Assembly: GCA_028864975.1 (NCBI GenBank)
Contig: JAGWLG010000005.1
Location: forward strand, 1 to 64,000
Source of the DNA: Thermoplasmata archaeon
Lineage (GTDB): Archaea; Thermoplasmatota; Thermoplasmata; Lutacidiplasmatales; UBA184
Reading direction: 5' to 3'
Length of the DNA stretch: 64,000 nt
A program made the translations under genes and the position numbers. The notes beneath the pieces are model-generated. The model did not search any database and was not told where the DNA came from. It worked only from the letters and a program-made list of their open reading frames with translations. Positions 8,136 through 50,830 of this stretch are shown one piece after another; within the stretch, counting starts at the first letter, position 1, and each line of letters starts with the position of its first letter.

Positions 8136-10520
8136 ATGGTGGCGTCGCCGACCTCCCCGTCCCCTGAACGAGCGAAGTCGCTAGGGGAGAATGCCACGGA
8201 GGGCAGCACCGCGGGCCAGGCCGTCAAGGGAGCCCCCCCCGTGGCCCCGCCCTGGGCAGTCGGCGGCCTCGTTCGGGAAAGGATCCGACGCGCGACCGTG
8301 ATCCTCGGCGGTGCACGAACGCGGCTCCTCGGTCTCCTTCACCATCCCCGCCGGACCCTGCGGAGCGCCCTCCGTGAGCCCAAGACATGGCTCGCGATTA
8401 TGGTCCTTGGATGGACCCTCCTCTTCGGAGCGATTGGGGATCTTCGTTACCAGACGTTCCAGACCTACGCGTGGGACCTGGGGGACTACAACCAGGCGCT
8501 CTTCACCACGCTCTTCTCCCACCGGTTCCTCTACTACACCGCGGACGTTCCGGCCGGCACCGGGGGAAACCTCCTTGCCGTGCACTTCTCGCCCTTCCTG
8601 GTACTCCTCCTTCCGGTCTACCTTCTCGCGCCAGGGCCGGAGATCCTCCTATGGGTCCAGGCTGCGGCCGTCGCGCTCGCCGCGCTTCCGACCTTCGGGA
8701 TCGCACGCCGCCGCCTGGGCTCCGACCAGTGGGGGCTTCTGCTCGCGGGCGTGTACCTGCTCTGGCCGGTGACCCAAGGGCTCAGCTGGTACGACTTCCA
8801 CCCCGAATCGTTCCTCCCGCTCACCGTCCTGCTCTCCCTCTACTTCCTCGAGGTCGGCCGCCCACGCGCCTTCCTCCTCACCTGGGTCCTCGCCATGAGC
8901 GTGATCGAGACGATTGTGCCGCTCCTTGCCCTCTGCGCCCTTCTGAGCGTGGTGAGCATCTACCTCGGACCCCGGTTACTGAGGGCCCCCGCCGCCGGTG
9001 GCGTCCGACACCGGGAAGCGGGGAGGTGGTGGCTCGCCGCCCTCGTCCTTTCCGTGCTCTGGCTTGGACTCGCCGCTTTCGCGATCTCCTCGTTCGCCCC
9101 ATCGTACGGGGGAGCCTTCGGGCCAAACTACGCCGTGAACTGGTCGATCCTGGGAGCTCCAAGCGCCCTCTGGGTCTTCCCGCAGGCGGTCCTCCACCCC
9201 GCGAGGGCGTTCGCCGCTCTCGCCTTCGCTCCGGCCCCGAAGCTGCTGTACATCGGGCTCCTATTCGGCCCGCTGCTGTTCCTACCGTGGTTGGGGGAGG
9301 ATCGCTACCTCCTCCCGGCGCTCGCCTGGGTGTGGCTCGCCGTGCTCTCGGACGCCCCGGCGTACTTCCAGATAGGGGACCAGTTCCCCTCCTACGCCGC
9401 TCCGTTCCTCATCGCCGGCGCGATTGGTGGGCTCGTACGCCTGCTCCGGGTTGTGCGGGCCCGAGGGGAGCACCCCGCCCCAAGAACCACGCCCTCCGTT
9501 CTGGCCGGGACGGGCCGGTCGAAGTGGAGGGCGCACGGACGGACGGCGACGCTTCCGCTGACCCTGGTCGTGGCCGCCCTGGCGGGGGCCGCTGTCGCGA
9601 GCCCTTTGCTGCCGATGCCCACGGGGAGCTTCGACGAGATCACCTACGGGATCCCGACCCTGGGTCCCCATGACCGGGCCCTCCAGCAGGTGCTCGACCT
9701 GGTCCCTCCTCACGCGAGCATCTTCACCACCTCCCATCTCTTCCCCGAGGTCTCGAGCCGGCTCAACGCCTACGTCCTTCCGGTGGCGAGCTACTTCGCG
9801 GGGAACAGCACGTTCGGAGCCTGGGTCGATCGCGACACCAACCTCTCGCAATTCGTTCTCGTCGACTACGTGGTCGACCCTTACGTCACGGTCATCTTTG
9901 CGAGCTACGTCAACCTCTCCGGATTCGGGATCTATGCGTCGGCCGACCAGGCTTACCTCTACGAGCGGGGATGGTCGGGGGCCCCGGTCCTCTTCTCCCC
10001 CTCTCCGCCCCTCGTCGTGGACCTCTCCTCGCTCCCCCTGGGGGACGCGACCATTAGCCCCTCACCGGGAGGAGCCCCAGGTAGCGTAGCGGTCCACCAT
10101 GCTCCGGGGGAGGAGAACGGCACCCTGCTCTGGGGGGGGCTCGTGTTCGGCGGGATGGGACCGGGAACGTACCGACTGGACCTTCGGACGGCGGTCCGCG
10201 CGGGGGGCCCGGAGCCCGGGGTTGCGCTCAAGGTCGCGAGAACTCCGCTCGTGGCCTCGGCATTCCCGATCAACTACTCGCCTCGGGGGCACGATTATGG
10301 CTTCTCTGAGACGCTCGATACCTCGCGGACCACCGACGTGGGGCTCCTCCAAGTCAACGGGAGCACGGACCCTCGCTCTCTCGTCAACACGACGGAGACC
10401 TTCCGCATCCCATGGGAAGGCCCCGGTCTCATCGTGTGCCAGGGATGGTTGCTCGACGATCAGATCGACTTCTGGCTCGAAGCAGCCTCGTTGACGCAGG
10501 TCGCTCCTTCCGTCAGCTGA
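8136..10520 (+). CDS. DUF2079-family polytopic membrane protein (GT-C-like glycosyltransferase), copy 1
   Basis: YAWDLGDYNQAL, HFSPFLVLLLPVY, LLWVQAAAVAL, YDFHPESF; many TM segments and a C-terminal soluble domain. Confidence 0.82.
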   Translation: MVASPTSPSPERAKSLGENATEGSTAGQAVKGAPPVAPPWAVGGLVRERIRRATVILGGARTRLLGLLHHPRRTLRSALREPKTWLAIMVLGWTLLFGAIGDLRYQTFQTYAWDLGDYNQALFTTLFSHRFLYYTADVPAGTGGNLLAVHFSPFLVLLLPVYLLAPGPEILLWVQAAAVALAALPTFGIARRRLGSDQWGLLLAGVYLLWPVTQGLSWYDFHPESFLPLTVLLSLYFLEVGRPRAFLLTWVLAMSVIETIVPLLALCALLSVVSIYLGPRLLRAPAAGGVRHREAGRWWLAALVLSVLWLGLAAFAISSFAPSYGGAFGPNYAVNWSILGAPSALWVFPQAVLHPARAFAALAFAPAPKLLYIGLLFGPLLFLPWLGEDRYLLPALAWVWLAVLSDAPAYFQIGDQFPSYAAPFLIAGAIGGLVRLLRVVRARGEHPAPRTTPSVLAGTGRSKWRAHGRTATLPLTLVVAALAGAAVASPLLPMPTGSFDEITYGIPTLGPHDRALQQVLDLVPPHASIFTTSHLFPEVSSRLNAYVLPVASYFAGNSTFGAWVDRDTNLSQFVLVDYVVDPYVTVIFASYVNLSGFGIYASADQAYLYERGWSGAPVLFSPSPPLVVDLSSLPLGDATISPSPGGAPGSVAVHHAPGEENGTLLWGGLVFGGMGPGTYRLDLRTAVRAGGPEPGVALKVARTPLVASAFPINYSPRGHDYGFSETLDTSRTTDVGLLQVNGSTDPRSLVNTTETFRIPWEGPGLIVCQGWLLDDQIDFWLEAASLTQVAPSVS

Positions 10521-38354: not shown

Positions 38355-41300
38355 TCACGGAAGCACGGAGGCGGGAGGGGGCGGAGGTCTCCGTGCGTCC
38401 CGTTCCATCGCGGAGGCGATGGCACGGCCCTGTTCCTCGAGCCGTGATCGCTGCCTCCGTTGAAGCCGAACGAAGGCCACCGCCAGCGCCATCCCGACCA
38501 AGGCGGCCCCTCCACCCAGGGCGCCGACTTCCAAGGGGGATAGCGTGGTCGATCGCGTCTGCGCAGTGCCGTTGACAGTGATGAGGAGGCTCGACGCGAC
38601 ATTCCTTCCGCCGCCGTCGCTGACCTCTCCGTAGACCGTGTAGACCCCGGGCCTGGCGTAGCTGTGCCCCACCGACGCCGAGGGGCAGCCCTGGCACGAG
38701 GGGGAGGGGAAGGCCTGAGAGAAGCCCGTCGAGCCATCCCCAAAGGAGAGGTTCAGGTGACGCGTCCCTACGCCACCCGACACGTCGTAATAGACCATCG
38801 TGGAGAGAGGCGCGGGTCCCCACCGTGGTGTCGCAGAGAGGTCGAGCACGAGGGCGGGTATCGTGCAGTTGCAGCCAACCTGCACCGACTCGGAGAGCTG
38901 CGCCACTACCTCGTGACCCGCACTGTCGAAGACTTCGACGGTCGCAGTGTACGAGCCCGTAGAGGCGTACGAATGCGATGCGACCATGCCCGTCCCGTTG
39001 GTCCCGTCGCCAAAGGACCAGGAAGCCACGTAGGGGGAGGTCCCTCCCGACGCATTCGCCCAGAAGGTCACCGGGTGGCCAGCAGGCGCAGGGTTGGGCG
39101 AAGATGCCACGGTTGTCGACATCGGACACCCCGTGCAACCTCCACGGACCTGGACGGTGATCGACGCGTTCGACGTCCCTCCCGTCGAATCGGTGAGGAA
39201 GACCGCGGCCGCGAAGGCGCCGGCAAGCGAATAGAGGTGGGTCACGTTGAGCCCGTTCTGACTTCCTCCGTCCCCGAAGTACCACACGGCCGCGTACCCA
39301 CCGGAACCCCCGGTGGGGTTGCTCTGGAAGGCGACGGAAAGGGGGGCGACCCCTGAGCTCGGGTTCGCGGACGGATTCGCGGTGAGCTTGGCACCGCCAC
39401 CGGTCACCGTGATCGTGAGCCCTGCGATCGACCATGCGCCCCGACTGTCGGTGACGTTCAAGGTGACCAGGAACGACCGGACGGCGGTGAAGGTGTGTGT
39501 CGGGTCCTGAACCACGGAGGTGCTTCCGTCCCCAAAGGACCAAGCGTAGGCGACGTACGTGCCGCTCCCACCGGTGGCTCCTCCTGTGAAGGAAACCGCC
39601 AGGGGTGCGGCCCCCGACATCGGTGTGGCCGAAGGGTGGGCGAGCAGGGAGGCGTTACTGTTCGAGACCGTGACCCACACCCAGGAGGACGCAAAGTGCC
39701 CAAGCCGATCCTCCACCACGACCGTCGAATTGTACGTCCCGCTGGCATTGTAGGTGTGCCGAGGGTTCTCGGCGTACGAGTGGGGGGTCAGGTCCCCATA
39801 GCTCCAGTTCCAGGTGTATGGGGGTGCACCGCCGAAGGCGGTCGCATTGAACAGGACCTTGAGTGGAACCGCGCCGGAGCTGGGGGTGGCGGAGGGAGTG
39901 ACCGCGAGCATCGGTGGGGAGAGCGCGGTGATCGTCAGGGACGCGTTGGACGTGGCTCCGCGCGAATCGGTGACCTCCAGCGTCGCGGGGAAGGTCCCCG
40001 GGGTCGTGTAGGCGTGGGCGGGGTTCTGGACGGCGGAGGTCCCCCCGTCGCCGAAGTTCCAGCCCCACGAGTAGGGGGTGCTCCCTCCGCTCGCACCGCC
40101 CGAGAAGGTGACGGTGAGGGGCACCGCACCGGACAAGGGTGTCGCGGAGGCCGAGGCCTGGAGCGTCGAGTTGGAGTTGCGGACGTAGACCCAGACCTCG
40201 GTCGAGCCCAAGCGACCGAGTGCGTCGGTCACCTGAAGCCCTGCAAGATAGGTTCCACTCGCGTTGTACGTGTGCACCGGATCCTGTGCGAGGGACTCCG
40301 CGCTGCCATCCCCATACACCCAGCGCCAGGTGTACGGAGCGCTACCTCCCCGCACCGTGCCGGAGAAGCTCACCGTCAAAGGTACGGCTCCCGAGGGGGG
40401 TGAGGCGACGGCGGAGGCCACCATCCCTGCCGAAACGTTCGACCAAATCCCTGCCCGATAGGTCCACGTGTCGTTGAGCTGGCTCCACAGGTAGTTCGCC
40501 CCTCCAAAGAGCACCACGTACCCGTCGGACCAATCGAACGTGGTCGCCTCCGCCATGCGGTTCAGAGGGTACTCCCAGGCGCAGGGACTGCCGCGCTGAC
40601 ACCAGATCCGGTCATTGTTCTGGGGATTGGTCCAGTTCCCGCTGTGGAAGGTCCACCAGATCTCCGGGTCGCATCCACCCCTCAGGCAGTTGGTCGCGTT
40701 GTCGTCGGCGTTCGTGAAGAAGGGTACGGCATCCGCTGCGTCGTACGTGAATCCATCGTCGTACGGCTCGGGTGGCACGGGCCCGGAGGGATGCAGGAGG
40801 ACCCACGAGCCCCCACGCCAGGCCCACGTGTCCTGTAGCATGTTCACCCAGAACCCGCCGGGCTCCGGATTGACCACCGTGGTGCCGCCGAAGAGCACGA
40901 CTTCATGGTCCGCCGCGTCGTAGGTGAGCCCCGCTCCGGCGCGCGCGGAGGGCGAGGTCGGCGGGAAGAGCTCCGTCCAGGCGCCCCCGACGAACGTCCA
41001 GGTGTCACCGCAGACCGTCCCACAGCCTCCATTCCCCCCTCCGAACAGGAGCATGTAGCCGTCCGCGGAGTCGTTCGTGAAGGCAGCGGCCTCTCTCGAT
41101 GGAGGCGAGACGGGGGGGTGGAGCTGGCTCCAGACCCCGGCTCGGAAGGTCCAGGTCTGTCCTGCCGCAGCGCAGGTCCCTCCGGGGGCGCTCCCTGTCC
41201 CGGCGAAATAGACCACCTCGCTGTCGAAAGGGTCGAACGCCATCGAGGAGGCGACGCAGCTCTCTGGAAAGGACGAGGGGAAGAGCTCGGTCCAGACCCC

Positions 41301-41774
41301 CGCGTGGTACGTCCAGGTCTCGGTCCCGTTCTCCGGCCCTGACCCCGTGGCCCCCAAGAGCAGAACATAGCCGTCCGCGGCGTCGTAGGTCATCGCACTG
41401 TCATAGATCACGAAGCCTGGAGGAGAAGCGCCCCCTGTCGTGGACAGGGCTCGTCCAAGCTCCCCCTCCGGGGGAAGCGGTCCCAACACGCTTTGCGAAC
41501 ACCGAAGGTTGTTCGAGAGTTCAAGGGGGCGCAGGGGGAACATCATCGCGGGATGGGTCTGGTCGCAGGAGCGGCCACCTGCACCGGCCCCGATGGGACC
41601 GAACGAAGCGAGCCCGGTGGGGCCTGGCATCGGGGGGCGGAGAGGGGCTGCCCTCGCACCGACGGGAGGGATGGCCACGAGCACGGCGAGACCGACCGTC
41701 ATGACGAGCAAGAGTGCGCTCGTCGAGGGAAGGGGCGGACGGCCCCTACATGAGCGTGCCGAGCAGGTGTTCAT
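38355..41774 (-). CDS. Kelch beta-propeller + 7 PKD domains + C-terminal TM surface protein
   Basis: MTYDAADGY.LLFGG repeats; seven SG..PL.V.F...GG..PY.W.FGDG units; TM LGGGAALVGMALAVAFV. ATG 41774 preferred. Confidence 0.9.
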   Translation of the reverse strand: MNTCSARSCRGRPPLPSTSALLLVMTVGLAVLVAIPPVGARAAPLRPPMPGPTGLASFGPIGAGAGGRSCDQTHPAMMFPLRPLELSNNLRCSQSVLGPLPPEGELGRALSTTGGASPPGFVIYDSAMTYDAADGYVLLLGATGSGPENGTETWTYHAGVWTELFPSSFPESCVASSMAFDPFDSEVVYFAGTGSAPGGTCAAAGQTWTFRAGVWSQLHPPVSPPSREAAAFTNDSADGYMLLFGGGNGGCGTVCGDTWTFVGGAWTELFPPTSPSARAGAGLTYDAADHEVVLFGGTTVVNPEPGGFWVNMLQDTWAWRGGSWVLLHPSGPVPPEPYDDGFTYDAADAVPFFTNADDNATNCLRGGCDPEIWWTFHSGNWTNPQNNDRIWCQRGSPCAWEYPLNRMAEATTFDWSDGYVVLFGGANYLWSQLNDTWTYRAGIWSNVSAGMVASAVASPPSGAVPLTVSFSGTVRGGSAPYTWRWVYGDGSAESLAQDPVHTYNASGTYLAGLQVTDALGRLGSTEVWVYVRNSNSTLQASASATPLSGAVPLTVTFSGGASGGSTPYSWGWNFGDGGTSAVQNPAHAYTTPGTFPATLEVTDSRGATSNASLTITALSPPMLAVTPSATPSSGAVPLKVLFNATAFGGAPPYTWNWSYGDLTPHSYAENPRHTYNASGTYNSTVVVEDRLGHFASSWVWVTVSNSNASLLAHPSATPMSGAAPLAVSFTGGATGGSGTYVAYAWSFGDGSTSVVQDPTHTFTAVRSFLVTLNVTDSRGAWSIAGLTITVTGGGAKLTANPSANPSSGVAPLSVAFQSNPTGGSGGYAAVWYFGDGGSQNGLNVTHLYSLAGAFAAAVFLTDSTGGTSNASITVQVRGGCTGCPMSTTVASSPNPAPAGHPVTFWANASGGTSPYVASWSFGDGTNGTGMVASHSYASTGSYTATVEVFDSAGHEVVAQLSESVQVGCNCTIPALVLDLSATPRWGPAPLSTMVYYDVSGGVGTRHLNLSFGDGSTGFSQAFPSPSCQGCPSASVGHSYARPGVYTVYGEVSDGGGRNVASSLLITVNGTAQTRSTTLSPLEVGALGGGAALVGMALAVAFVRLQRRQRSRLEEQGRAIASAMERDARRPPPPPASVLP

Positions 41775-41800
41775 CGCCCATCCACTCGGTCGTCGAGGGA

Positions 41801-41835
41801 CAAAAAGGCCTCTCGGAGATACGCCCGAGATACGC
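41801..41835 (-). promoter_or_regulatory. Promoter: GCGTATC-N4-GCGTATC-N11-TTTTTG (tandem direct repeat + TATA-like box)
   Basis: Plus strand caaaaaggcctctcggaGATACGCccgaGATACGC; same spacing as 47130-47164. Confidence 0.7.
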
Positions 41836-41908
41836 CGTTCCGGGGTCGCAACACGGCGCGGGGAGCCTCCCACCCGCGTCGAAGGAGGGAGCCGAACGGT
41901 CCTCGTCC

Positions 41909-43327
41909 TCATTCCTGCGGGGCCGCCTCCTTGGCCGCTCCTCGACCAGGATCGAGGGTCGCACCCTTCCGTCGAAGCTCCTTGGCCAGGGCCTCTCCGC
42001 GGCCGGTCAATCGGTAGACCTTCATGCGACGTGGTCGGCCGCGCACGTGGCGAACGTCGACCAGAAGGATCCCTCCGGCCTCCAGACGTCGTAGGACATT
42101 GGTCAGCGCGTTCTGACGGACCCCGAGGGTCTCGGCCATGCCCTGCTGGGTGAACGCAACCGGTGCGACATCGTCCGCGTGAAGCGCCCCTTGCAAGGCC
42201 AGGTGGACGACGACCCTCTCGGAGACGCGAAGGGCGTCCCGGGACGGAGGTGTCGCCTTCGGACGCGAAGGCCGGGCCGGCCTCGCGGTCACGCCCTGGG
42301 TCGCTCCGGAAACCTCTGGGGGCTTCGGAGGGGATATCGGAACCGTTCCAGGGACGGCCACGGCAACCACGGCCTCGACCGAAGAGCTCGCAGTGGGGGG
42401 GCTCGTGATGGCCGTGGGGGTCGTGGCCACGCTTCCGTCAGTCGTGGCCTGGGTATCAGCGACCTCTCTGCGAGCCTTCGTTTCCCGGCTCTCCTGACCC
42501 GTTCGTATCCCCCCAAGTCGCAGCAGGGCGTAGAGCGCGAGCCCTCCCGAGGCCGCTCCCAGGCCTAGCGCCCAGAACAGAGGCGTGATCTCCAGCGAAG
42601 AGGGAGAAGCCGCCGCGGCGGTGACGTTGACCCACGTCGTGGCTGACGCCGGGGTGCCTTTGGAATCGGTGACCGTGAACGTGACCAGATACGTTCCCGC
42701 ATCTCGGTACGAATGATCGAGCGCGATCCCCGTTCCGCTCGATGCGTCCCCGAAGGTCCAGGAGTAGGAAGCGTACGTGCCGGTGCCTCCCGTCACGCGG
42801 CCCTCGAAGGAGACCGTCAGCGGCGCTTCCCCTCCCAGAGGCGAGGCCACGATCGAGACCTCTAACGCCGAAGGCACGACATGGATGGTGATGTTGGCGC
42901 TCGAGGTCCTGAGGCCCTCGTGCACCGTAACGGTCGTGTCGAAGTACCCCGCGTGGCCGTAGGTGTGGTATCTGGGGTCCCAGGGCGCATGGCTCGAGAC
43001 GTTGACATCGGGAGTTCCGTCGCCGAAGCTCCAGTTGTAGCTTGTCGGTACCCCCGAGATCGCGGTCGCGTTCAACAAGACGACCAGGGGAACCCCGCCG
43101 TAGCTAGGGGTCGCGGAAAGCGCGACGAGGAAGAGGGGCTCCGGGGAAGTCGAGGCCTCCTCCGGCGCCGTCCCCGCCCCAGGGGTCCCTGAGAAGAAGA
43201 GGAGGAGGACCCCGAGGAGCAGGGTGATGACCAGGCGCCGAACGTGGCGTACGTAGCACCTCAAGGCGAATGTCGGCACCCTGTAGGAGCGATATGGGCA
43301 TTTGCTCCCGGGGCCGGTACCCCACAC
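41909..43327 (-). CDS. Membrane-tethered transcription factor: signal/TM + 2 PKD + TM + C-terminal winged HTH
   Basis: RRLVITLLLGVLLLFF; two PKD units; TM PLFWALGLGAASGGLALYALL; FTQQGMAETLGVRQNALTNVLRRLEAGG...RMKVYRLTGRG. The start may be GTG 43279. Confidence 0.85.
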   Translation of the reverse strand: MWGTGPGSKCPYRSYRVPTFALRCYVRHVRRLVITLLLGVLLLFFSGTPGAGTAPEEASTSPEPLFLVALSATPSYGGVPLVVLLNATAISGVPTSYNWSFGDGTPDVNVSSHAPWDPRYHTYGHAGYFDTTVTVHEGLRTSSANITIHVVPSALEVSIVASPLGGEAPLTVSFEGRVTGGTGTYASYSWTFGDASSGTGIALDHSYRDAGTYLVTFTVTDSKGTPASATTWVNVTAAAASPSSLEITPLFWALGLGAASGGLALYALLRLGGIRTGQESRETKARREVADTQATTDGSVATTPTAITSPPTASSSVEAVVAVAVPGTVPISPPKPPEVSGATQGVTARPARPSRPKATPPSRDALRVSERVVVHLALQGALHADDVAPVAFTQQGMAETLGVRQNALTNVLRRLEAGGILLVDVRHVRGRPRRMKVYRLTGRGEALAKELRRKGATLDPGRGAAKEAAPQE

Positions 43328-43333
43328 CGGCGA

Positions 43334-43765
43334 TCAGGCCTTCTCTCTGAGGACGGCCGCCGTCTTGCTGAGCTCATCAGGGCTCGTAGGTTGGACCTTC
43401 ATCTCCCACCATTCCTGGAGTGCGAGGTCGTCCCCCTCCCGCCGGGGGACAACGTGGATGTGGAGGTGCCTCACGCTCTGCTCCGCCGATCTGCCACTCG
43501 AGACGAACAGATTGTTGCCCGTGACCTCGAGGACCTTGCGAAGGCGAAGAGCGGTCCACCGCGCGAGCTCGGCCACCTCCGCCCAATCCTCGGGAGTCAC
43601 CTCTGTGAGGTCCGCCGCATGGGCCTTCGGGATGACCAGCGAGTGTCCCCAGCTTATCGGGTTGACATCGAGGAAGGCGAGGGCGCGGGGCGACTCGCGG
43701 ATCCGGTGGGAAGGGATCTCTCCCTTGGCGATGGCGCAGAAGACGCAGGGGGGTCCGCTACCCAT
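43334..43765 (-). CDS. HIT family nucleotide hydrolase
   Basis: CVFCAI, AFLDVNP, GHSLVIPK, HLHIHVVPR. Confidence 0.96.
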   Translation of the reverse strand: MGSGPPCVFCAIAKGEIPSHRIRESPRALAFLDVNPISWGHSLVIPKAHAADLTEVTPEDWAEVAELARWTALRLRKVLEVTGNNLFVSSGRSAEQSVRHLHIHVVPRREGDDLALQEWWEMKVQPTSPDELSKTAAVLREKA

Positions 43766-43828
43766 GCAACCAAGAGCGAGCGGGGTGGCTTTGAACCTAC
43801 CGACATGGGCTCCTAAGCGAAGCTCGGC

Positions 43829-46800
43829 TCACCGCGCGCCAAACGGAGGCATCTCGAGACTCCTCTGACGGAGGGCGATCGCCCCGCTCTGAGGGTCGAA
43901 CTCGATCCTCTCGGAAAGGATCGTGGGGGGGTGTCGGACCTGTGTCGCCCCCCCTGCTGGGGTCGATGGCGACGGTTTCGAAGTGTCGCCCGGAGCCGGA
44001 GACGCGCCGGACGCAACAAGGCCCCCGGACGCTCTCCTTCGAGGGGGGCGAAGGAGGAGGAAACCCGCCAGAGCCGTGATCCCCACCGTACCAAGGACCA
44101 GTCCCGCCACGATGGCCGGGTCCCCAAGGGCCGAGCCCGACCTGGCCCCACCTGGCGCACTGACCTGGACGTACAGCACGCTGCTGATACCCCGTCGCCC
44201 CGATGCATCGGTCACCAGGACGAAGACCGCATACTCGCCCGTCATCGCGAACGTGTGCGTGGTGGAGAGCGAGGTCGAGCTGAACGTGGTCCCATCTCCG
44301 AAGTTCCAGAGAACCTGATACGGCACAGCTCCGCCCTGTACGACCGCCGTGAACTGCGTCGGACTGCCCTCTCGCGGGAAGGACGAGCTCCAGAAGCTGA
44401 CGTTCAGAGGAAGGTCCCCTCCCCCGCAGGATGTCGCGTTGACGATGGCGATCGCGGGAAGGGTCGCCGAGTCCCCCACTTGGTCCTCCACGGTGAGACG
44501 GGGATGATAGGTTCCCGGGACCGAGTAGTTGTACGAGATGGTCGCGGGGCCCTGGACCGTGCCCGCTCCGGTGAAGTTCCAGAGGAAGGTGTACGGGGGG
44601 ACTCCCCCCGTCGCGGAAGCCTGAAAGACGACGTTGACCGGCGCGCAGGCGCTGACGCTGGTCGCCGTGGCCGATCCCACGAGGACGGTGCCGTTCCCTC
44701 CCCCGCCGCTCTCGTTGACCTGGATGCGCAGCGACGCGATGGCGCTGTTCCCCCCGCTGTCGTTGACGAGAACGGTGGCCTCGTAGGTACCGGGGGTCGG
44801 GTAGGTATAGGCCGGGCAGGCCTCGGAAGACGCTCCCCCGTTCCCGAAGGTCCACGCATAGGTGTAGGGCGCGAGCCCTCCCGCGACCTGGGCACAGAAC
44901 TGGACCGCGAGCGGCGCCGTACCGCTCGTAGGCTCGCCCGAGACCTGGATCAGGACCGACGAGGAGCCGTTAGGGTCGACCGTGACCATCAACGCGGCGC
45001 TTGTCGCAGAGTTCCCGCGGGCATCCGTGACGAGAAGCTGGACAGTGAAAGTTCCGGTCGCGTAGATGGTGCAACTGAAGCTCGCGTTCCTGGGAGCGGT
45101 GCAGGGGACCCCCGTCCAAGCGAAGGCATAGGGGGGAGCGCCGCCGGAGGCCGCTCCGGTGAACTGGACGAGCAAAGGCGCGACCCCGGTCGTCGGATCC
45201 GCGGAAGCCGTGGCCGAGAGCGCTGGGGGTGAGGTGACGACGACGGTCACGCTGGTCGATGCGGAAGCGCCCGTCGAGTCGGTGGCCACGACGGTGGCGG
45301 TGAAGGTTCCTGGCGTCGAATAGATGTGACTCACCGTGGCCCCCGTGGCCGTCGAACCGTCGCCGAGGTCCCAGCTCCAAGAGTAGGGGGGCGATCCCCC
45401 CGCCGTGGCGGCGTCCAGGGTGCAGGGAGTTCCAAAGCCGACGGGGTCCGGCGTGGCGCTCGCCGCTACATGGAGCGTGGTCGAACTGGTCACGTTCAGC
45501 GTCCAGGTGTCACCAAAGAGGGTGGTCGACGTGCCGCCCCCGAAGTAGAGGACGTACCCCTCGGCGGGGTCGTAGGCCATGGCGGCGCCGGCACGGCCGT
45601 CGGGCATCGCCGTGAGCAGACTCGTCAAGTTCGTCCAGTTCGCTCCCGACAGGCTCCACAGCTCTACACAGCTGGTCGGGCCGCTGCAGGAATGCCGCGG
45701 CCACGTGTCCGTGAAAGGGAGGAGGACCCCTTGAGCGGCCGGATCGTCGACCATCTGCTCCCACCCCCCGAAGGGCGGCTCTGGGCTCCACGTATCGACC
45801 TTCCATGCCCCGTTCTGGTACAGACAGGTCCCGTAGGTGTCGTTCCCCCCTACGGAGACCAAGTAGGCGTCGGTCGAGTCGAAGGTGAGAGGGTCAAGGA
45901 GGGTGCAAGAGTCGACCGCAGCATCCTGCCACCAGGTCCCCGCGTGGTAGAAATCGAGCGGGCTCGCTGACGGGGTAGGGTTCGGGTAGCGCCCGATCAA
46001 GGCTACCGCAGCCGCGACCGGGTCGTAGGTAAGGTCCGGGGCGTACGACCATGACCCGAGGGACGAGGGAAGGGTCCCTTCCAGCTGCCACTGGTCATTG
46101 GAGAAGACCCAGACATCGTTCAGACCACGGACCGAGCTGTTGGACCCGCCCACGAGGAGGAGGTACCCGTCCGCAGCGTCGTACGTCATCATCGCGCCGT
46201 AGCGCGGTGAGGGGGCGGTCGAGAGTCCCGCCGAGAGGTTGGTCCAGACCCCGTGCTCGAAGGCCCACGTGTCGCCGAGGGGGGCGCTCCTCGCGCCCGC
46301 TCCCCCGAAGAGGAGCACGGCCTGCATGGCCGGGTCGTAGGCGGCCGCCGCCCCCGTCCGAGCCGAAGGGGAGGCAGGGGTGGTGAGGAGGGTCCAGGCA
46401 GCGGATACCGTCGGAGGCGTCACCGTGATGGTGAGATTGACGAACGCATGCCAAGGCTGGGCCTGGGTATCGATCGCCTCGAAGGTCACGAGATAGGTCC
46501 CTGGGGCTGTGAACGTGTGGGCACCGAAGGTCCAGGTGCCGGTCCGGGCGTAGCAGTAACTGTTGCTCGGCCCCGCCCTCGCCCCATCGCCGTAGTCGAA
46601 GCTGCAGTCATAGTAGTAGTAACCGGCGGGGTCCCCCCTCACGGAGGTCTCAAACCCGACGGTGAGCGGCGCGGGACCCGCCGTCCTCGAGGCGTTCGCC
46701 CAGGCTTGCAGAACGAAGGAGGGCGACACTCCCGCCGGAGCGCCGTCGGTTTGAGGACCCGATGGGCCCTCTACCACGCTGCCGCGCGCGAGCGTTTCTG

Positions 46801-47095
46801 CCCAAGGGGGTGCGAGCTGCGGTCCGAGCCGTTGACCCGGGAGCTGCCAGTGGTCGACCGGCTCCCACAGGTGGGCCATGGCGTCCGATCGGACCTCCGT
46901 GGGGGTCGGCGAGTGGGCAGCCAACGACAGCGCCCCCGACACCGGGTCCGATAGCGGGCGTCCTGCATGGACAGCAAGCCCCGCTGGGAGGATGCTCAGA
47001 AGGAGCATCATGACCAAGAGGAGCACCATCGCCGTATCGGTCGAGCTCCTGGAGGGTCTGGGGCAGCAGCCCATTGACGGGCGCGATGCATTCAT
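43829..47095 (-). CDS. PKD + Kelch beta-propeller + 5 PKD + C-terminal TM surface protein
   Basis: Signal MVLLLVMMLLLSIL; AAYDPA..AVLLFGG repeats; GG..PY.W..GDG units; TM IVAGLVLGTVGITALAGFLLL. Confidence 0.9.
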   Translation of the reverse strand: MNASRPSMGCCPRPSRSSTDTAMVLLLVMMLLLSILPAGLAVHAGRPLSDPVSGALSLAAHSPTPTEVRSDAMAHLWEPVDHWQLPGQRLGPQLAPPWAETLARGSVVEGPSGPQTDGAPAGVSPSFVLQAWANASRTAGPAPLTVGFETSVRGDPAGYYYYDCSFDYGDGARAGPSNSYCYARTGTWTFGAHTFTAPGTYLVTFEAIDTQAQPWHAFVNLTITVTPPTVSAAWTLLTTPASPSARTGAAAAYDPAMQAVLLFGGAGARSAPLGDTWAFEHGVWTNLSAGLSTAPSPRYGAMMTYDAADGYLLLVGGSNSSVRGLNDVWVFSNDQWQLEGTLPSSLGSWSYAPDLTYDPVAAAVALIGRYPNPTPSASPLDFYHAGTWWQDAAVDSCTLLDPLTFDSTDAYLVSVGGNDTYGTCLYQNGAWKVDTWSPEPPFGGWEQMVDDPAAQGVLLPFTDTWPRHSCSGPTSCVELWSLSGANWTNLTSLLTAMPDGRAGAAMAYDPAEGYVLYFGGGTSTTLFGDTWTLNVTSSTTLHVAASATPDPVGFGTPCTLDAATAGGSPPYSWSWDLGDGSTATGATVSHIYSTPGTFTATVVATDSTGASASTSVTVVVTSPPALSATASADPTTGVAPLLVQFTGAASGGAPPYAFAWTGVPCTAPRNASFSCTIYATGTFTVQLLVTDARGNSATSAALMVTVDPNGSSSVLIQVSGEPTSGTAPLAVQFCAQVAGGLAPYTYAWTFGNGGASSEACPAYTYPTPGTYEATVLVNDSGGNSAIASLRIQVNESGGGGNGTVLVGSATATSVSACAPVNVVFQASATGGVPPYTFLWNFTGAGTVQGPATISYNYSVPGTYHPRLTVEDQVGDSATLPAIAIVNATSCGGGDLPLNVSFWSSSFPREGSPTQFTAVVQGGAVPYQVLWNFGDGTTFSSTSLSTTHTFAMTGEYAVFVLVTDASGRRGISSVLYVQVSAPGGARSGSALGDPAIVAGLVLGTVGITALAGFLLLRPPRRRASGGLVASGASPAPGDTSKPSPSTPAGGATQVRHPPTILSERIEFDPQSGAIALRQRSLEMPPFGAR

Positions 47096-47129
47096 GGTGG
47101 CACCGCGATGAATCTGTGTTCTCTCCGTT

Positions 47130-47164
47130 CAAATATCGAACTCAAAGATACGCTGAGGATACGC
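47130..47164 (-). promoter_or_regulatory. Promoter: GCGTATC-N4-GCGTATC-N11-TATTTG
   Basis: Plus strand caaatatcgaactcaaaGATACGCtgagGATACGC; a third, inverted copy GCGTATC at 47184-47190. Confidence 0.7.
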
Positions 47165-47282
47165 CACGAACAGGACGCCCGTAGCGTATCCGGGTCGTAG
47201 CTCGCTACGGATCCTTGGCGACCTCCCCACTCATCATCGGCGCGGGAGGAGATGTTTTAGGCGCCACCTATTCGCGCCCCCC

Positions 47283-47522
47283 ATGACCCTCACTCGGCGT
47301 TCGGCCATGGCTCCGAAAGGGGCCTACTGCTTCGGATGCAACCAGGCCATCGACGGCGGGGCACCTTCGGTCCGCTTCGAGAGCGACCTTGTCCCCGCCC
47401 CGGACCGCCCCGAGCTGGCAAACCTCTACTTCCACCCTGGCCATCTCCTTCGCTATGCTCGTCGCCGGAACTGGACCGAGCTTGCCTCTTTCCTTGAAGC
47501 TAATACTCCGTCGAGCTGGTGA
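47283..47522 (+). CDS. Small putative zinc-binding protein (CxxC...HxxH)
   Basis: YCFGCNQAI...LYFHPGHL; the start may be ATG 47307. Confidence 0.65.
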   Translation: MTLTRRSAMAPKGAYCFGCNQAIDGGAPSVRFESDLVPAPDRPELANLYFHPGHLLRYARRRNWTELASFLEANTPSSW

Positions 47523-47764
47523 TCCTGTTCCGGGCTCTCGGGCACCGAGGGTCCGTGGTCTGCGATGACGAGGAGGGCCCCGGGACCCTGAGTCGTTGTG
47601 TCGTCCTCCACGGGGACGGGAGAGGTGGAGCACCCGAACCCCACTCGAAGAGATGCTGCTCCTCGGTCGGGCCCTTCTTCGGGGAGCATCTCCTCCCGTG
47701 AACACCTAATGCCCCTCAAGATTCTCCTACGAACGTGGGGCATTCCCCGTCAAGTTCCCGAGCG

Positions 47765-50700
47765 ATGAAGACCGGGACCCCGAGCTCGGACATCCCAGGA
47801 CTCTCGAGGTCTGCCCAGCTCGTGGGCCGGCGAGAGGTCATGGCCGAGCTCCGACGGATCCTTCTGGCCGCGAAGGAGGGGACCGGCTCCACGGTCGCGC
47901 TCACAGGCCCCGGTGGGATCGGGAAGACGAGCCTCCTCCGGTGGCTGGACGAGGAAGCGCGGGGCGAGGGCTTTGCAGTGCGGATGGGTTTCTGCTTGCA
48001 GGGGATCGACGCGCCTTTCTTTGCCTTCGAGCAGGTCTGGGGAGCATCGTCAGCCATACGTGACCCACCGGAGAGCCCGGCCGGGTCTAGTGCCGCGGCC
48101 GCGGCGGACGACGACGGGGCCCGGCTCGCGGCCGGGCCTGCGCAGCACGCCTCCATGGAACTCCGGCCGCAAGAGACGGGAGCCCTCCCGGGACGTCCTC
48201 TCCCTTTCCTCGGGCAGGCCGATGACGAGATCCCCCCGTCGGTCACGCTCCTACGATACCGGGAAGAGCTCGCGCAGGCCTCGAGCCAACGCCCGTTCCT
48301 CCTCCTGCTTGACGACCTGCAGTGGGCGGATCCCCAGTCCCTTCAGGCGCTGCAGTTCCTCGCTCGAAACCTGAGCGAGCTCCGCGCGTTCGTGGTCGTC
48401 GCCTTACGCGACGACCCGCACTCCCTCCAGGGGACCGACCCGGCCGAGGGACCGACGGTCGGGGAGACCATCGACCAACTGGTACGGGAGCGGACCCTTC
48501 GCCGCTTCTCCCTCTCCCCCTTCACTCGCGGAGAGGTCCGCCGTCTGGTCGCCAACGCGCTCGGGGGGGGCGTAGTCTCCGGAGAAAGCGAAGCGATGCT
48601 CCAGATCCTGACCGAACGAAGCGGAGGGATCCCCTACTACGTCGAGGAGCTCCTCCAGCAGCTGCGTTCGGAGGGCTACGTCGAGCGCGTCCGTGGAGGT
48701 TGGAAGCTCCGGCCCCCGGAGTCCTGGAAGGGTGCGCGTCGCTCGGGGGAAGGGCCCCGAGCGCCCATCCCCCTCTCGCTCCAGCGCCTGCTCAGGGCCA
48801 AGGTCTCGCCGCTCTCCCCGTCGGAGCGACGCGTTCTCGAGGTCGGGGCGGTGGTGGGGCTCCGCTTCGACCTTGAAGCCGTTGCCGCCGTCACGGGGCT
48901 CGGGGGTGCCGAGACCGAGTCGGTCTCCCGAAAGCTCTCGGAGGGGAGCCCGCTCCTGGTCCCCCCGGGAGGGGGTGGGGCTTCCTGGTCGTTCGTCCAC
49001 CCTCTGCTGTGGGAATACCTCCTCCACGAGCTGGCCCCGGGGTCCTTGCGGCGCATCTCTCAGGACCTCGCGACGTGGTGGGAGGTCCATCGCCCTCAGG
49101 AGATCGGGCGGATCGCGGGGTTCTACCATGCCGCTGGCGATGCGCGACGGGGACCGCCATCGATCCGTCGGGCGCTCGAGCATGCCCGACGGTCCCTCGC
49201 CTTGGACCAGGTCGAGACCTACCTGGGGTGGCTGCGGGAGCTGCTCCTGGAGCAGGGAACTTCGACGGCCCTCGTCGTCGAGGAGCAGTTGTTCATCGTC
49301 GACGCCCTGCGCTCGCTGGGAGGCTTCGAACATGGTCGTCGGGTCCTCGAGGGCCTCACCGACCTTCCGATCCCTCCCCCCCTGCGAGGCGAGGTCCTGG
49401 TCCGTCTGGCGGATCTGGTCAAGAACTACGATCCAGAGCGGAGCCAGCGACTCCTGACCGACCTCGAGCAGGGGACTTCGGTCGCCGGGCTGGTGCCCTA
49501 CGGGACCCTGCTGGGACGGATCCGCGTCGCCCAGGCCTATCTCCGAAACGAACAGATGGACTACTCCAAGAGCCTGGAGCTCGGCAGCGAGGCGCTCTCC
49601 CTCCTCGGGCCGAAGGGCGACCCGTACGAACGATCTCGTGTGCTCTCGTACCGCGCGTCCGCCCTGGCCAATCTCGGCCGGTTCGAGGAGGCGGCCGCCG
49701 CCTCAGGGGGGGCCCAGGAGATCGCCGAGAACGCGGGGTTGATGGGGATCCTCGAGCAGGCCAAGGTGGGCGCCGCCTATGCTCAGCTCGCCCGGGGCCA
49801 CGTTCGAGAGGCCCACGAGGACTTCCTTGCCGCCACCTCGCTCGCCCGACGGTCCGGCCACATCCCCCTCGTAGTGCACGGGCTGCTCTGCGACTGTCTT
49901 TCCCTCCTCGAGTTGGGTCGGTCCGACGAAGCGCGAAGCTTCGCGGAAGAGGCGAAGCTCCTCGCACGGCAGTTCGGCATGCAACGGTACGTGGCCGAGG
50001 CGGAGGGCACTTTGGCCGCTATCGCCCTTCGTCGTGGTGACACCATCAACGCGGTCCGGCACGGGAAGATCGCGCTGGGCTTGTCCAGTGGCATGGGGGA
50101 GGGCCAGCGGGTCAGCTTCCGTCTGACCCTGATCCGCGCTTACGCCGCCAGGGGGGAGGGGGCGGCGGCGCTGCGGGAGCTCTCCGAGGTCCTTCCCCCC
50201 GGGACGGACCCGAAAAGCGCCAGCTATCCGGACATCGCGCTCACGGGCGCTGAGGCCCTTGAGGCCAACGGACGGTCGGAGGAGGCCCGGGCGTTCCTGG
50301 AGGCCTCCCTCTCAAGGTCGCGCGAGATGCGGCTGCCCCTCATCGAAGCGGACTCGCTCCTCGCGCTCGCGGTCTGGGAGGAGCGCCACGGGGGGGCGGC
50401 GGCCTCGAGTCGACGCCGAAAGGAGGCTGAAGCTATGCTGGCACCGCTCTCGCTCTCCCTCCATGGGCGCCCACCGCCCCTCCTCTCCACCCTGCATGCC
50501 TCCCGCCGCCCTCGCCCCTCCCGGAGCGAGCGAAGGACCCCCGGCCTCTCCACGGGAGACCTCGTCCTCCTGCATCTCCAGCGCAACCTCCGCCACAGCG
50601 CCCTCCTGAGCGACGGAGGGGCCGCACCGGTGGCCCTCACGCAGGAAGGGATCGGAGAGGAACTCGGGCTGTCTCAGGGACGTTTGGCCGCCCCGCTCCA

Positions 50701-50830
50701 ACGGCTCGTGCAACGAGGGCTCGTGAAGTGCGCGGTGTGCCACGTGCAAGGGTTCGAAAGGCGCCGAAAGGCCTACGCGCTCACTCGCAAAGGACTTCTT
50801 GTGGCGAAGGGGCTCCAACCCCGCCGTTGA
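47765..50830 (+). CDS. STAND-type NTPase (AAA_16-like) + TPR repeats + C-terminal winged HTH
   Basis: Walker A GPGGIGKT, Walker B LLLLDDLQWAD, SGGIPYYVEEL, helical repeats, LTQEGIGEELGLSQ...RRRKAYALTRKG. Confidence 0.9.
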   Translation: MKTGTPSSDIPGLSRSAQLVGRREVMAELRRILLAAKEGTGSTVALTGPGGIGKTSLLRWLDEEARGEGFAVRMGFCLQGIDAPFFAFEQVWGASSAIRDPPESPAGSSAAAAADDDGARLAAGPAQHASMELRPQETGALPGRPLPFLGQADDEIPPSVTLLRYREELAQASSQRPFLLLLDDLQWADPQSLQALQFLARNLSELRAFVVVALRDDPHSLQGTDPAEGPTVGETIDQLVRERTLRRFSLSPFTRGEVRRLVANALGGGVVSGESEAMLQILTERSGGIPYYVEELLQQLRSEGYVERVRGGWKLRPPESWKGARRSGEGPRAPIPLSLQRLLRAKVSPLSPSERRVLEVGAVVGLRFDLEAVAAVTGLGGAETESVSRKLSEGSPLLVPPGGGGASWSFVHPLLWEYLLHELAPGSLRRISQDLATWWEVHRPQEIGRIAGFYHAAGDARRGPPSIRRALEHARRSLALDQVETYLGWLRELLLEQGTSTALVVEEQLFIVDALRSLGGFEHGRRVLEGLTDLPIPPPLRGEVLVRLADLVKNYDPERSQRLLTDLEQGTSVAGLVPYGTLLGRIRVAQAYLRNEQMDYSKSLELGSEALSLLGPKGDPYERSRVLSYRASALANLGRFEEAAAASGGAQEIAENAGLMGILEQAKVGAAYAQLARGHVREAHEDFLAATSLARRSGHIPLVVHGLLCDCLSLLELGRSDEARSFAEEAKLLARQFGMQRYVAEAEGTLAAIALRRGDTINAVRHGKIALGLSSGMGEGQRVSFRLTLIRAYAARGEGAAALRELSEVLPPGTDPKSASYPDIALTGAEALEANGRSEEARAFLEASLSRSREMRLPLIEADSLLALAVWEERHGGAAASSRRRKEAEAMLAPLSLSLHGRPPPLLSTLHASRRPRPSRSERRTPGLSTGDLVLLHLQRNLRHSALLSDGGAAPVALTQEGIGEELGLSQGRLAAPLQRLVQRGLVKCAVCHVQGFERRRKAYALTRKGLLVAKGLQPRR

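What the first reader, a model, noticed from the sequence alone, without database searches (positions are those of the whole stretch)
41801..47164. Identical promoter architecture upstream of both Kelch-PKD genes: GCGTATC-N4-GCGTATC-N11-TWTTTG
Seen: 41801-41835 (caaaaaggcctctcggaGATACGCccgaGATACGC) and 47130-47164 (caaatatcgaactcaaaGATACGCtgagGATACGC) share two exact heptamers with an 11-bp period. In both, the first heptamer starts exactly 17 nt after the start of the TATA-like box. Each sits about 27-35 bp before the start of a Kelch-PKD-TM gene 5.3 kb apart, and the spacer bases differ. Established: OmpR/ToxR-type wHTHs bind direct repeats spaced one helical turn apart, and archaeal activators bind just upstream of BRE/TATA. 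Inference: an activator site, with the two local wHTH proteins as the obvious candidates.
Basis: partly seen in the sequence, partly recalled or inferred. Interest (0 to 1): 0.8.

Follow-up and report, generated by a model that had tools for sequence, protein, structure and literature searches.

The report
Operator of a membrane-tethered archaeal regulator
The repeated GCGTATC heptamers in front of two surface-protein genes are real, and are most likely the docking site of the neighbouring membrane-anchored PKD/winged-helix regulator. The same site, promoter and regulator recur together across a family of uncultured Thermoplasmata archaea, and both the DNA word and the protein's reading helix change from one regulator subgroup to the next.

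Summary
GCGTATC-N4-GCGTATC lies at 41818-41835 and 47147-47164 on the minus strand. These are the only two exact copies in the 3.6-Mb genome (about 0.006 expected), and there are no one-mismatch copies. Each ends 11 nt before an AT-rich TATA-like box, with the ATG 26 or 34 nt after the hexamer.

The two Kelch-PKD genes are only about 30% identical as proteins, so recent duplication does not explain the identity.

In other genera of the same Thermoplasmata family, the same repeat sits at the same distance from TATA and ATG. It precedes PKD, Kelch-PKD or NHL surface-protein genes, usually followed in the same direction by a homologue of the window's PKD-PKD-TM-wHTH gene (41909-43327). Of 13 exact copies in 149 published relatives, 11 lie 2.5-4 kb upstream of such a homologue. 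The reversed control pattern has none.

Regulator subgroups with a different recognition helix carry a different heptamer (GTGTATC, GAGTATC, CGTACC) at the same promoter position. The STAND-wHTH neighbour has a different helix and is not conserved at these loci.

The domain is MarR/PadR-like, not OmpR/ToxR-like. Activation versus repression is not shown.

An overlapping window of this scan noted the same stretch. It was not found on other DNA.

The parts
47184..47190 (-). Third heptamer of site 2, in inverted orientation (GATACGC on the minus strand), 19 nt upstream of the direct repeat.
   Evidence: An inverted heptamer lies at spacer 8-9 (7 sites) or 19-20 (3 sites) in 10 of 19 related sites, against about 1 expected over all 54 positions scanned.
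47147..47164 (-). Site 2 direct repeat GCGTATC-CTCA-GCGTATC. This is the operator of the Kelch-PKD2 / HIT / regulator gene string.
   Evidence: It has the same arrangement as the canonical repeat -> PKD gene -> regulator order in relatives.
47128..47135 (-). TATA-like box TATTTGAA of site 2, starting 11 nt after the repeat and ending 32 nt before the ATG.
   Evidence: The same box (gTATTTGAa) is seen in relatives. Genome-wide, the distance from an AT-rich octamer to the ATG peaks at 22-28 nt.
43829..47095 (-). Kelch-PKD2, a surface protein of 1088 aa with an N-terminal signal or anchor and a C-terminal TM. It is a target gene.
   Evidence: Pfam Kelch + PKD; hydropathy.
43334..43765 (-). HIT-family gene packed between Kelch-PKD2 and the regulator, and probably co-transcribed with them.
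   Evidence: Pfam HIT. Only 6 nt separate it from the regulator ORF.
41909..43327 (-). PKD-PKD-TM-wHTH regulator. It has a signal peptide, two PKD domains, a TM at about residues 250-272 followed by a basic stretch, a linker of about 110 aa rich in Pro, Thr and Ala, and a C-terminal winged helix. The start codon is uncertain.
41966..42214 (-). Winged-helix domain of the regulator. The recognition helix QNALTNVLRRLEA is encoded at 42077-42115.
   Evidence: AlphaFold model with pLDDT 95 and helix 3 at domain residues 34-46. MarR/PadR-like by sequence and fold.
41818..41835 (-). Site 1 direct repeat GCGTATC-TCGG-GCGTATC, 73 nt after the regulator's stop codon. This is the operator of Kelch-PKD1.
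   Evidence: An identical 18-mer occurs in another genus, G018.
41801..41806 (-). TATA-like hexamer TTTTTG of site 1, 11 nt after the repeat and 26 nt before the ATG. This spacing implies a leaderless transcript.
38355..41774 (-). Kelch-PKD1, a surface protein of 1139 aa and the second target gene. It is about 30% identical to Kelch-PKD2.
47765..50830 (+). STAND (AAA_16-TPR)-wHTH protein.
   Evidence: Its helix is SQGRLAAPLQRL. It is not conserved next to related sites.

Best explanation
The two heptamer repeats, together with the inverted third heptamer at site 2, form the operator of the adjacent membrane-tethered one-component regulator. That regulator has extracellular PKD domains, one membrane span, a long linker and a cytoplasmic MarR/PadR-like winged helix.

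Each winged helix probably reads one heptamer. The two direct copies, 11 bp apart, lie on one face of the DNA at about -61 to -44, just upstream of the BRE/TATA of a leaderless or short-leader promoter.

Site 2 drives Kelch-PKD2, HIT and the regulator itself, which makes an autoregulatory loop. Site 1 adds the paralogous Kelch-PKD1 gene.

Shown here: the element is unique in the genome; its sequence, spacing and promoter position are conserved; it is linked to the regulator gene; and operator and helix variants partition by regulator subgroup.

Inferred: binding itself, the position of the transcription start, and the sign of regulation. I favour activation at about 60:40. The site lies where archaeal activators such as ArnR and EarA bind, and the BRE region of these promoters is G-rich rather than A-rich.
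For: The repeat is unique in the genome and occurs at one spacing only.

The two target proteins are about 30% identical, so neutral DNA between them would be randomised.

Across the 41 related loci fetched around the closest wHTH homologues in relatives (593 kb), there are 11 exact, 6 one-mismatch and 4 two-mismatch repeats at period 11. There are none exact at periods 9, 10, 12 or 13 or with control heptamers.

In the reverse direction, the exact pattern occurs 16 times in 151 family genomes, against 0 for the reversed control. Of 13 hits in published relatives, 11 lie 2.5-4 kb upstream of a regulator homologue on the same strand.

The distance from repeat end to ATG is 42-45 nt in 16-17 of 20 sites, with a TATA-like box 11 nt after the repeat. 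Information content peaks on the heptamers and on TATA, not on the spacers.

Of 20 target genes, 17 carry PKD domains and 4 are Kelch-PKD. A second, unlinked site in G105 precedes an NHL propeller gene.

All 12 loci with an exact repeat have the helix QN[AS]LTNV; none of 22 loci with another helix does. Helices QNQ[VI]S and QNR[LI]T go with GTGTA(T/A)C. QG helices go with GAGTATC or GAATATT. QNVIS-type helices go with CGTAC(C). All sit at the same promoter position.

In G140, two adjacent systems each carry their own operator type. The inverted heptamer matches the direct heptamers too: GATACAC occurs with GTGTATC.

The variable residues lie at the N-terminal end of the modelled recognition helix.
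Against: There are no binding, transcript or TSS data.

The loci compared are related, so the helix/operator association rests on few independent events, and the Fisher P values overstate it.

Some loci with the canonical helix have degenerate proximal repeats (L070, L071, L075) or no repeat found (L077).

Site 1 lacks the inverted heptamer.

In site 2 the ATG is 8 nt further from TATA than in the canonical promoters.

MarR/PadR-type domains usually bind palindromes as dimers, whereas the core here is a direct repeat.

Same-genus genomes lack both the repeat and this regulator type.
Confidence: 0.72

Rival explanations
1. The binder is the same, but it acts as a repressor or autorepressor. Occupancy at -61 to -44, plus the inverted site, would block TFB/TBP access or loop the DNA. 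An extracellular signal would then relieve repression.
For: MarR/PadR-like domains are mostly repressors in bacteria. The repeat ends only about 5 nt from the expected BRE. Autoregulated operons are common for repressors.
Against: The site does not overlap TATA or the start site, where most archaeal repressors act. It occupies the same zone as the ArnR boxes, -43 to -84 (PMC6396743), and the EarA sites upstream of BRE (PMC5512572). The BRE region is G-rich and looks weak.
Confidence: 0.25
2. The repeat is bound by the neighbouring STAND (AAA_16-TPR)-wHTH protein, a MalT-like switch.
For: It is encoded 670 bp from site 2 on the opposite strand. It carries a homologous wHTH, 40% identical.
Against: Its recognition helix differs at most base-facing positions. 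No such protein lies within 8 kb of the repeat in the other genomes, where only the PKD-TM-wHTH homologue is constant. An earlier follow-up note reached the same view.
Confidence: 0.04
3. The repeat is recognised by an unlinked factor, or is a promoter cassette carried along with a mobile PKD-gene module and has no dedicated regulator.
For: The locus is absent from same-genus genomes and resembles loci of another genus, which suggests transfer. G105 has an unlinked site.
Against: The spacers and flanks differ while the heptamers, their period and their register to TATA are kept. The operator variants follow the linked regulator's helix, including in two adjacent systems in one genome.
Confidence: 0.06

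Closest known systems
ArnR / ArnR1 of Sulfolobus acidocaldarius, membrane-bound one-component activators of archaellum and pilus genes (PMC6396743)
   Same: It is an archaeal, membrane-anchored transcription factor that controls cell-surface structure genes. It has two cis-elements just upstream of BRE/TATA (-43 to -84), and both are needed for binding.
   Different: ArnR has an N-terminal HTH, a HAMP/sensor domain and two C-terminal membrane spans, all facing the cytoplasm. Its boxes are inverted repeats, TCGAC-N5-GTCGA. Here the sensor is an extracellular PKD pair, the wHTH is C-terminal, and the core site is a direct repeat with an 11-bp period.
Transmembrane transcription regulators (TTRs) as surveyed by Demey et al. 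2023 (PMC10269533), including ToxR, TcpP and CadC
   Same: It is a single-pass membrane protein with a DNA-binding domain, and so a one-component system that acts from the membrane. ToxR-type proteins also read direct repeats about one helical turn apart (established knowledge).
   Different: ToxR and CadC carry an OmpR-type Trans_reg_C domain at the N-terminus and a periplasmic C-terminal sensor. Here the domain is MarR/PadR-like and the topology is reversed. PKD is not mentioned in that survey.
EarA of Methanococcus maripaludis and Pyrococcus furiosus (PMC5512572, PMC10665913)
   Same: It is a small winged-helix activator that needs several short repeated sites (TACATA, four copies) upstream of a weak BRE to switch on a surface-organelle operon.
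   Different: EarA is soluble, its sites differ in sequence and arrangement, and it has no sensor domain.
MarR / PadR / HxlR (YodB) winged-helix regulators, e.g. PDB 5zhc, 4aih, 5hs7
   Same: It has the same fold and the same helix-3 plus wing DNA-reading geometry.
   Different: All Pfam matches fall below the curated cut-offs. The domain is fused behind a membrane span. No separate dimerisation helices are evident. Operators in that family are typically palindromes.

Membership tests
OmpR/ToxR-type membrane regulators (ToxR, TcpP, CadC) | Trans_reg_C (OmpR-type) winged-helix DNA-binding domain | tested here: not met
   Pfam on the whole protein and on 37 domain homologues gives only sub-threshold PadR, Crp-like, HxlR and MarR matches. 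The PDB profile and Foldseek hits are MarR, PadR and YodB.
OmpR/ToxR-type membrane regulators (ToxR, TcpP, CadC) | N-terminal cytoplasmic DNA-binding domain, membrane span, C-terminal extracytoplasmic sensor | tested here: not met
   The order here is signal peptide, two PKD domains, TM, basic stretch, linker, C-terminal wHTH.
Transmembrane transcription regulators (TTR, PMC10269533) | A predicted DNA-binding domain and at least one transmembrane region in one polypeptide | tested here: met
   The wHTH model has pLDDT 95. A hydrophobic segment at 250-268 (Kyte-Doolittle 1.58) is followed by RLGGIRTGQESRETKARRE. The same layout is seen in the G018 homologue.
ArnR/ArnR1 family | N-terminal HTH, HAMP/sensor domain, two C-terminal TM segments; inverted-repeat boxes TCGAC-N5-GTCGA | tested here: not met
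   The domain order and the operator sequence both differ. Only the position of the site upstream of BRE is alike.
MarR/PadR superfamily | Match to a curated family model above its gathering score | tested here: not met
   The best Pfam E-values are about 3e-06 to 7e-06, and all scores fall under the cut-offs.
MarR/PadR superfamily | Winged-helix fold with recognition helix 3 and a beta-hairpin wing | tested here: met
   The AlphaFold model shows H2-8, H23-30, H34-46, E50-57, E63-69 and H71-82. Foldseek gives TM 0.57-0.71 to MarR, PadR and YodB chains.
Archaeal TBP/TFB promoter with upstream activating site | AT-rich TATA box about 25 nt upstream of the transcription start, with the regulatory site directly upstream of BRE | tested here: inconclusive
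   The genome encodes TBP. The TATA-like box lies 24 nt (32 nt at site 2) before the ATG, and the repeat ends 11 nt before the box. Genome-wide, the distance from an AT-rich octamer to the ATG peaks at 22-28 nt. The TSS itself cannot be mapped with these tools.
Operator of the linked regulator | Sequence-specific binding of the wHTH to the heptamers | not testable with these tools
   The support is only comparative: genetic linkage, and operator and helix variants that partition by regulator subgroup.

The most novel reading that the evidence does not exclude
These Thermoplasmata carry an expandable family of membrane-tethered PKD-wHTH sensors. Each autoregulates its own surface-protein operon through heptamer repeats whose sequence can be predicted from a few residues of the recognition helix. 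That would be a readable protein-DNA code in an uncultured archaeal lineage.

The sensor's two PKD domains are 42% identical to PKD repeats of the target protein. The regulator may therefore sense its own product, or that product's ligand, by homotypic PKD contact. That would make it a feedback device for surface-layer composition.
Probability: 0.3. Interest if true: 0.78.

Novelty: new variant of a known kind. Interest (0 to 1): 0.62.

Why it matters
Very few archaeal transcription factors have known sites. Among membrane-bound archaeal factors, the papers I found and read describe only ArnR and ArnR1 as characterised experimentally.

Here, comparative genomics alone yields four things for organisms known only from metagenomes:
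- a defined operator;
- its fixed position in the promoter;
- a small regulon of PKD, Kelch and NHL surface proteins;
- a strong candidate binder.

The set of natural helix and operator variants can be tested directly with short oligonucleotides and an 85-residue domain. The system could become a model for how a transcription factor works from the archaeal membrane.

Tried and rejected
- **Same-genus synteny.** Only the HIT gene and scattered PKD repeats match. The three same-genus genomes carry only the other paralogue type (helix KQNTIATILKRL) and no repeat.
- **One-mismatch scan of 60 relatives.** Most hits are inside a conserved coding gene and are false positives. Only G018 was a true site.
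- **Naive profile of AT content upstream of the first ATG of long ORFs.** It was dominated by spurious ORFs and was uninformative. It was replaced by the octamer-to-ATG distance histogram.
- **Rfam on 41700-47900.** Nothing was found.
- **The search for related loci in genome contigs.** It returned only 10 loci, all already fetched. Its use was to name the organisms as Thermoplasmata MAGs.
- **Operator of the C101-type paralogue and its same-genus orthologues.** Not identified. The contigs are short or no clear promoter was seen.
- **Two GCGTATG-N4-GCGTATC sites in the class-level relative G059.** They lack the TATA/ATG geometry and were not followed.
- **Recent duplication as the cause of the identity.** Rejected, because the proteins are about 30% identical.
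- **ORF 47268-47705 as a gene separating site 2 from the STAND gene.** Rejected as coding: its GC3 is 0.60 against about 0.8 for real genes.
- **Word search of earlier notes.** Nothing was found.
Full report
**Observation.**
- Site 1, minus strand: GCGTATC-TCGG-GCGTATC (41835-41818), 11 nt, TTTTTG (41806-41801), 26 nt, ATG (A at 41774).
- Site 2, minus strand: GCGTATC-CTCA-GCGTATC (47164-47147), 11 nt, TATTTG (47135-47130), 34 nt, ATG (A at 47095).
- The window holds 2 exact hits.
- The whole assembly (3.61 Mb, 67% GC, 124 contigs) holds exactly these two. It has no one-mismatch copy, 13 two-mismatch copies, and none at any other spacing from N0 to N15.
- With 202 heptamers on both strands, 0.006 pairs are expected.
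- A third copy lies inverted at 47184-47190, 19 nt upstream of site 2.

**Setting.** The genome encodes TBP, so it is archaeal. Related contigs are titled 'Thermoplasmata archaeon' MAGs. The minus-strand gene order is:
- site 2;
- Kelch-PKD2 (47095-43829);
- HIT (43765-43334);
- the PKD-PKD-TM-wHTH regulator (43327-41909);
- site 1;
- Kelch-PKD1 (41774-38355).

Both Kelch-PKD proteins have an N-terminal signal or anchor and a C-terminal membrane anchor.

The regulator has a signal peptide and two PKD domains. A hydrophobic span at about 250-272 is followed by a basic stretch. Then comes a linker of about 110 residues rich in Pro, Thr and Ala, and a C-terminal winged helix. By the positive-inside rule, the winged helix is cytoplasmic (inference).

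A STAND AAA_16-TPR-wHTH gene starts at 47735 or 47765 on the plus strand.

**Not a duplication relic.** The two Kelch-PKD proteins are only 29-32% identical. Unconstrained DNA of that age would be randomised. Yet 14 of 14 heptamer bases, the N4 spacing and the 11-nt register to TATA are all kept, while the spacers differ.

**Conservation in other genera.**
- A pattern scan of relatives found an identical 18-mer in G018, a different genus of the same family. There it lies 42 nt before the ATG of a 511-aa PKD-TM protein. The next gene on the same strand is a 392-aa PKD-PKD-TM-wHTH protein, whose helix QNSLTNVLRRL nearly equals the window's QNALTNVLRRL.
- The wHTH domain has homologues in 84 of 151 family genomes, often several per genome.
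- I fetched about 8 kb on each side of 40 of the best homologues, which with the G018 locus makes 41 loci and 593 kb.
- These loci hold 11 exact, 6 one-mismatch and 4 two-mismatch repeats at period 11. No exact copy occurs at periods 9, 10, 12 or 13, or with four control heptamers.
- In nearly every case the repeat is on the regulator's strand, 2.5-4 kb upstream of the wHTH. The order is repeat -> surface-protein gene -> regulator.
- Site 2 of the window has this canonical arrangement, with HIT inserted. Site 1 is an extra target placed just after the regulator.

**Reverse test.** The exact pattern occurs 16 times in 151 family genomes, and the reversed control 0 times.
- Leaving out the unpublished genome G082, 13 hits remain in 12 relatives.
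- Eleven of these are the regulator-linked sites above.
- One lies inside a conserved coding gene (G168).
- One is a second, unlinked promoter in G105, in front of an 838-aa NHL beta-propeller gene.
- The G082 hit also lies about 3.8 kb from a wHTH hit, judged from coordinates only.

**Promoter anatomy.**
- The distance from repeat end to ATG is 42-45 nt in 16-17 of 20 sites, and exactly 43 nt in 10.
- The aligned sites give this consensus: [GATAC(G/T)C]-N9 or N19-20-GCGTATC-nnCG-GCGTATC-TTCG-N6-g-TAtTTaA-about 24 nt-ATG. Information content is concentrated on the heptamers, TTCG and TATA.
- An inverted third heptamer is present in 10 of 19 sites, at spacer 8-9 or 19-20. About one is expected over all positions scanned. 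The two preferred spacers differ by one helical turn.
- Genome-wide, the distance from AT-rich octamers to the next long-ORF ATG peaks at 22-28 nt. Leaderless promoters are therefore common here.
- On that basis the repeat maps to about -61 to -44. This is inference, since no TSS data exist.
- In site 2 the ATG is 8 nt further away, which implies a short leader.

**Targets.** Of 20 downstream genes, 17 have PKD domains above the Pfam cut-off. Four of those are Kelch-PKD: the two in the window, plus L081 and L097. One gene has a weak PKD match and two have no family.

**Who binds.**
- All 12 loci with an exact repeat have helix QN[AS]LTNV. None of 22 loci with another helix has it.
- With 38 further loci fetched, the 18-mer at the same promoter position sorts by helix type:

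| Recognition helix type | Loci | Heptamers at the same promoter position |
|---|---|---|
| QNQ[VI]S and QNR[LI]T/S | 7 | GTGTATC or GTGTAAC |
| QG.. helices | 7 of 9 | GAGTATC, GAATATT or GAGTTCT |
| QNVIS, QSALS and QNVLS types | not counted | CGTAC(C) |

- In G140, two adjacent systems each carry their own type: GCGTATC with QNALT, and GAATATT-N4-ACGTAAA with QGSLV.
- The inverted heptamer matches the direct heptamers as well: GATACAC occurs with GTGTATC in L143.
- The domain model (pLDDT 95) places residues 34-46 in helix 3, followed by a beta-hairpin wing. The variable residues 35-39 lie at that helix's N-terminal end.
- These loci are related, so the Fisher P values of about 1e-5 to 1e-6 overstate independence.
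- The STAND protein's helix is SQGRLAAPLQRL. No second wHTH gene accompanies most related sites.

**Family.** By sequence and by fold the domain is MarR/PadR/HxlR-like. The nearest solved structures include 5zhc (E 2.4e-5), SlyA and YodB, with TM scores of 0.57-0.71. All Pfam scores fall below the curated cut-offs, and there is no OmpR-type match. The domain is widespread in the class, in 77 of 121 genomes, often at the end of long proteins.

**Mechanism.** The best-supported reading is an operator for the linked membrane-tethered regulator, with one winged helix per heptamer on one DNA face, directly upstream of BRE/TATA. I favour activation, for three reasons:
- ArnR/ArnR1 boxes lie at -43 to -84 (PMC6396743).
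- EarA sites lie upstream of a weak BRE (PMC5512572).
- The BRE region of these promoters is G-rich, whereas other promoter-like sites in this genome show A enrichment there.

Repression remains a live rival. Whether the protein acts while tethered or after cleavage is unknown.

**Novelty.** Transmembrane regulators are a known class and are common in archaea (PMC10269533). I found no description of a PKD-ectodomain, C-terminal-wHTH family or of this operator in the held library.

Noticed in passing
window 47098-47764: There is a gap of about 670 bp between the Kelch-PKD2 start and the STAND gene with no convincing gene. The 145-aa ORF at 47268-47705 has GC3 of 0.60, against about 0.8 in neighbouring genes. 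There is no Rfam match, and GC is 62-68%. What this gap holds is unexplained.
   Followed up: partly
window 42580-43150 versus 38355-41774: The regulator's two extracellular PKD domains are 42% identical to an internal PKD pair of its target, Kelch-PKD1 (residues 621-796). This suggests possible homotypic sensing.
   Followed up: partly
L107 (G140:C2:447000-466999): Two PKD-TM-wHTH systems lie side by side. One has GCGTATC repeats and helix QNALT. The other has GAATATT-N4-ACGTAAA and helix QGSLV, in front of a 1027-aa gene.
   Followed up: yes
L132 (G105:C20:30000-48000), about 8790-8851: A second exact repeat in G105 is unlinked to the regulator. It lies directly after carB and 42 nt before an 838-aa NHL-repeat beta-propeller gene. 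An inverted CATACGC sits 5 nt upstream of it.
   Followed up: partly
G000 contigs C101:7203-7451, C39:22341-22589, C97:41235-41489: The genome has further paralogues of the wHTH domain with different recognition helices (KQNTIATILKRL, TPNSVAVTLKRL, SQGSFAKALVRL). Some lie in open frames of 1000-1700 aa. Their operators were not identified. The C101 type is the one found in the three same-genus genomes.
   Followed up: partly
G000:C28:28682-28699, and L006, L010, L014, L123: A near or exact copy of the repeat (GCGTATCcttcGCGTAnC) lies inside a conserved protein-coding gene across the family. It is a recurrent false positive for pattern scans.
   Followed up: partly
L038:8954-9076 (G018): A short second wHTH-like fragment (helix PQKSLTNVLRRL) lies just downstream of the G018 regulator gene. 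It may be a gene remnant.
   Followed up: no
related promoters, about 10-15 nt before the ATG (alignment): A conserved C-rich patch (CCCA or CCCC) lies between TATA and the start codon in most sites. Its role is unknown; it could be an initiator or a promoter-proximal element.
   Followed up: no
window 43334-43765: A HIT-family hydrolase gene is wedged between Kelch-PKD2 and the regulator. It is the only part of the locus with DNA-level matches in same-genus genomes.
   Followed up: no
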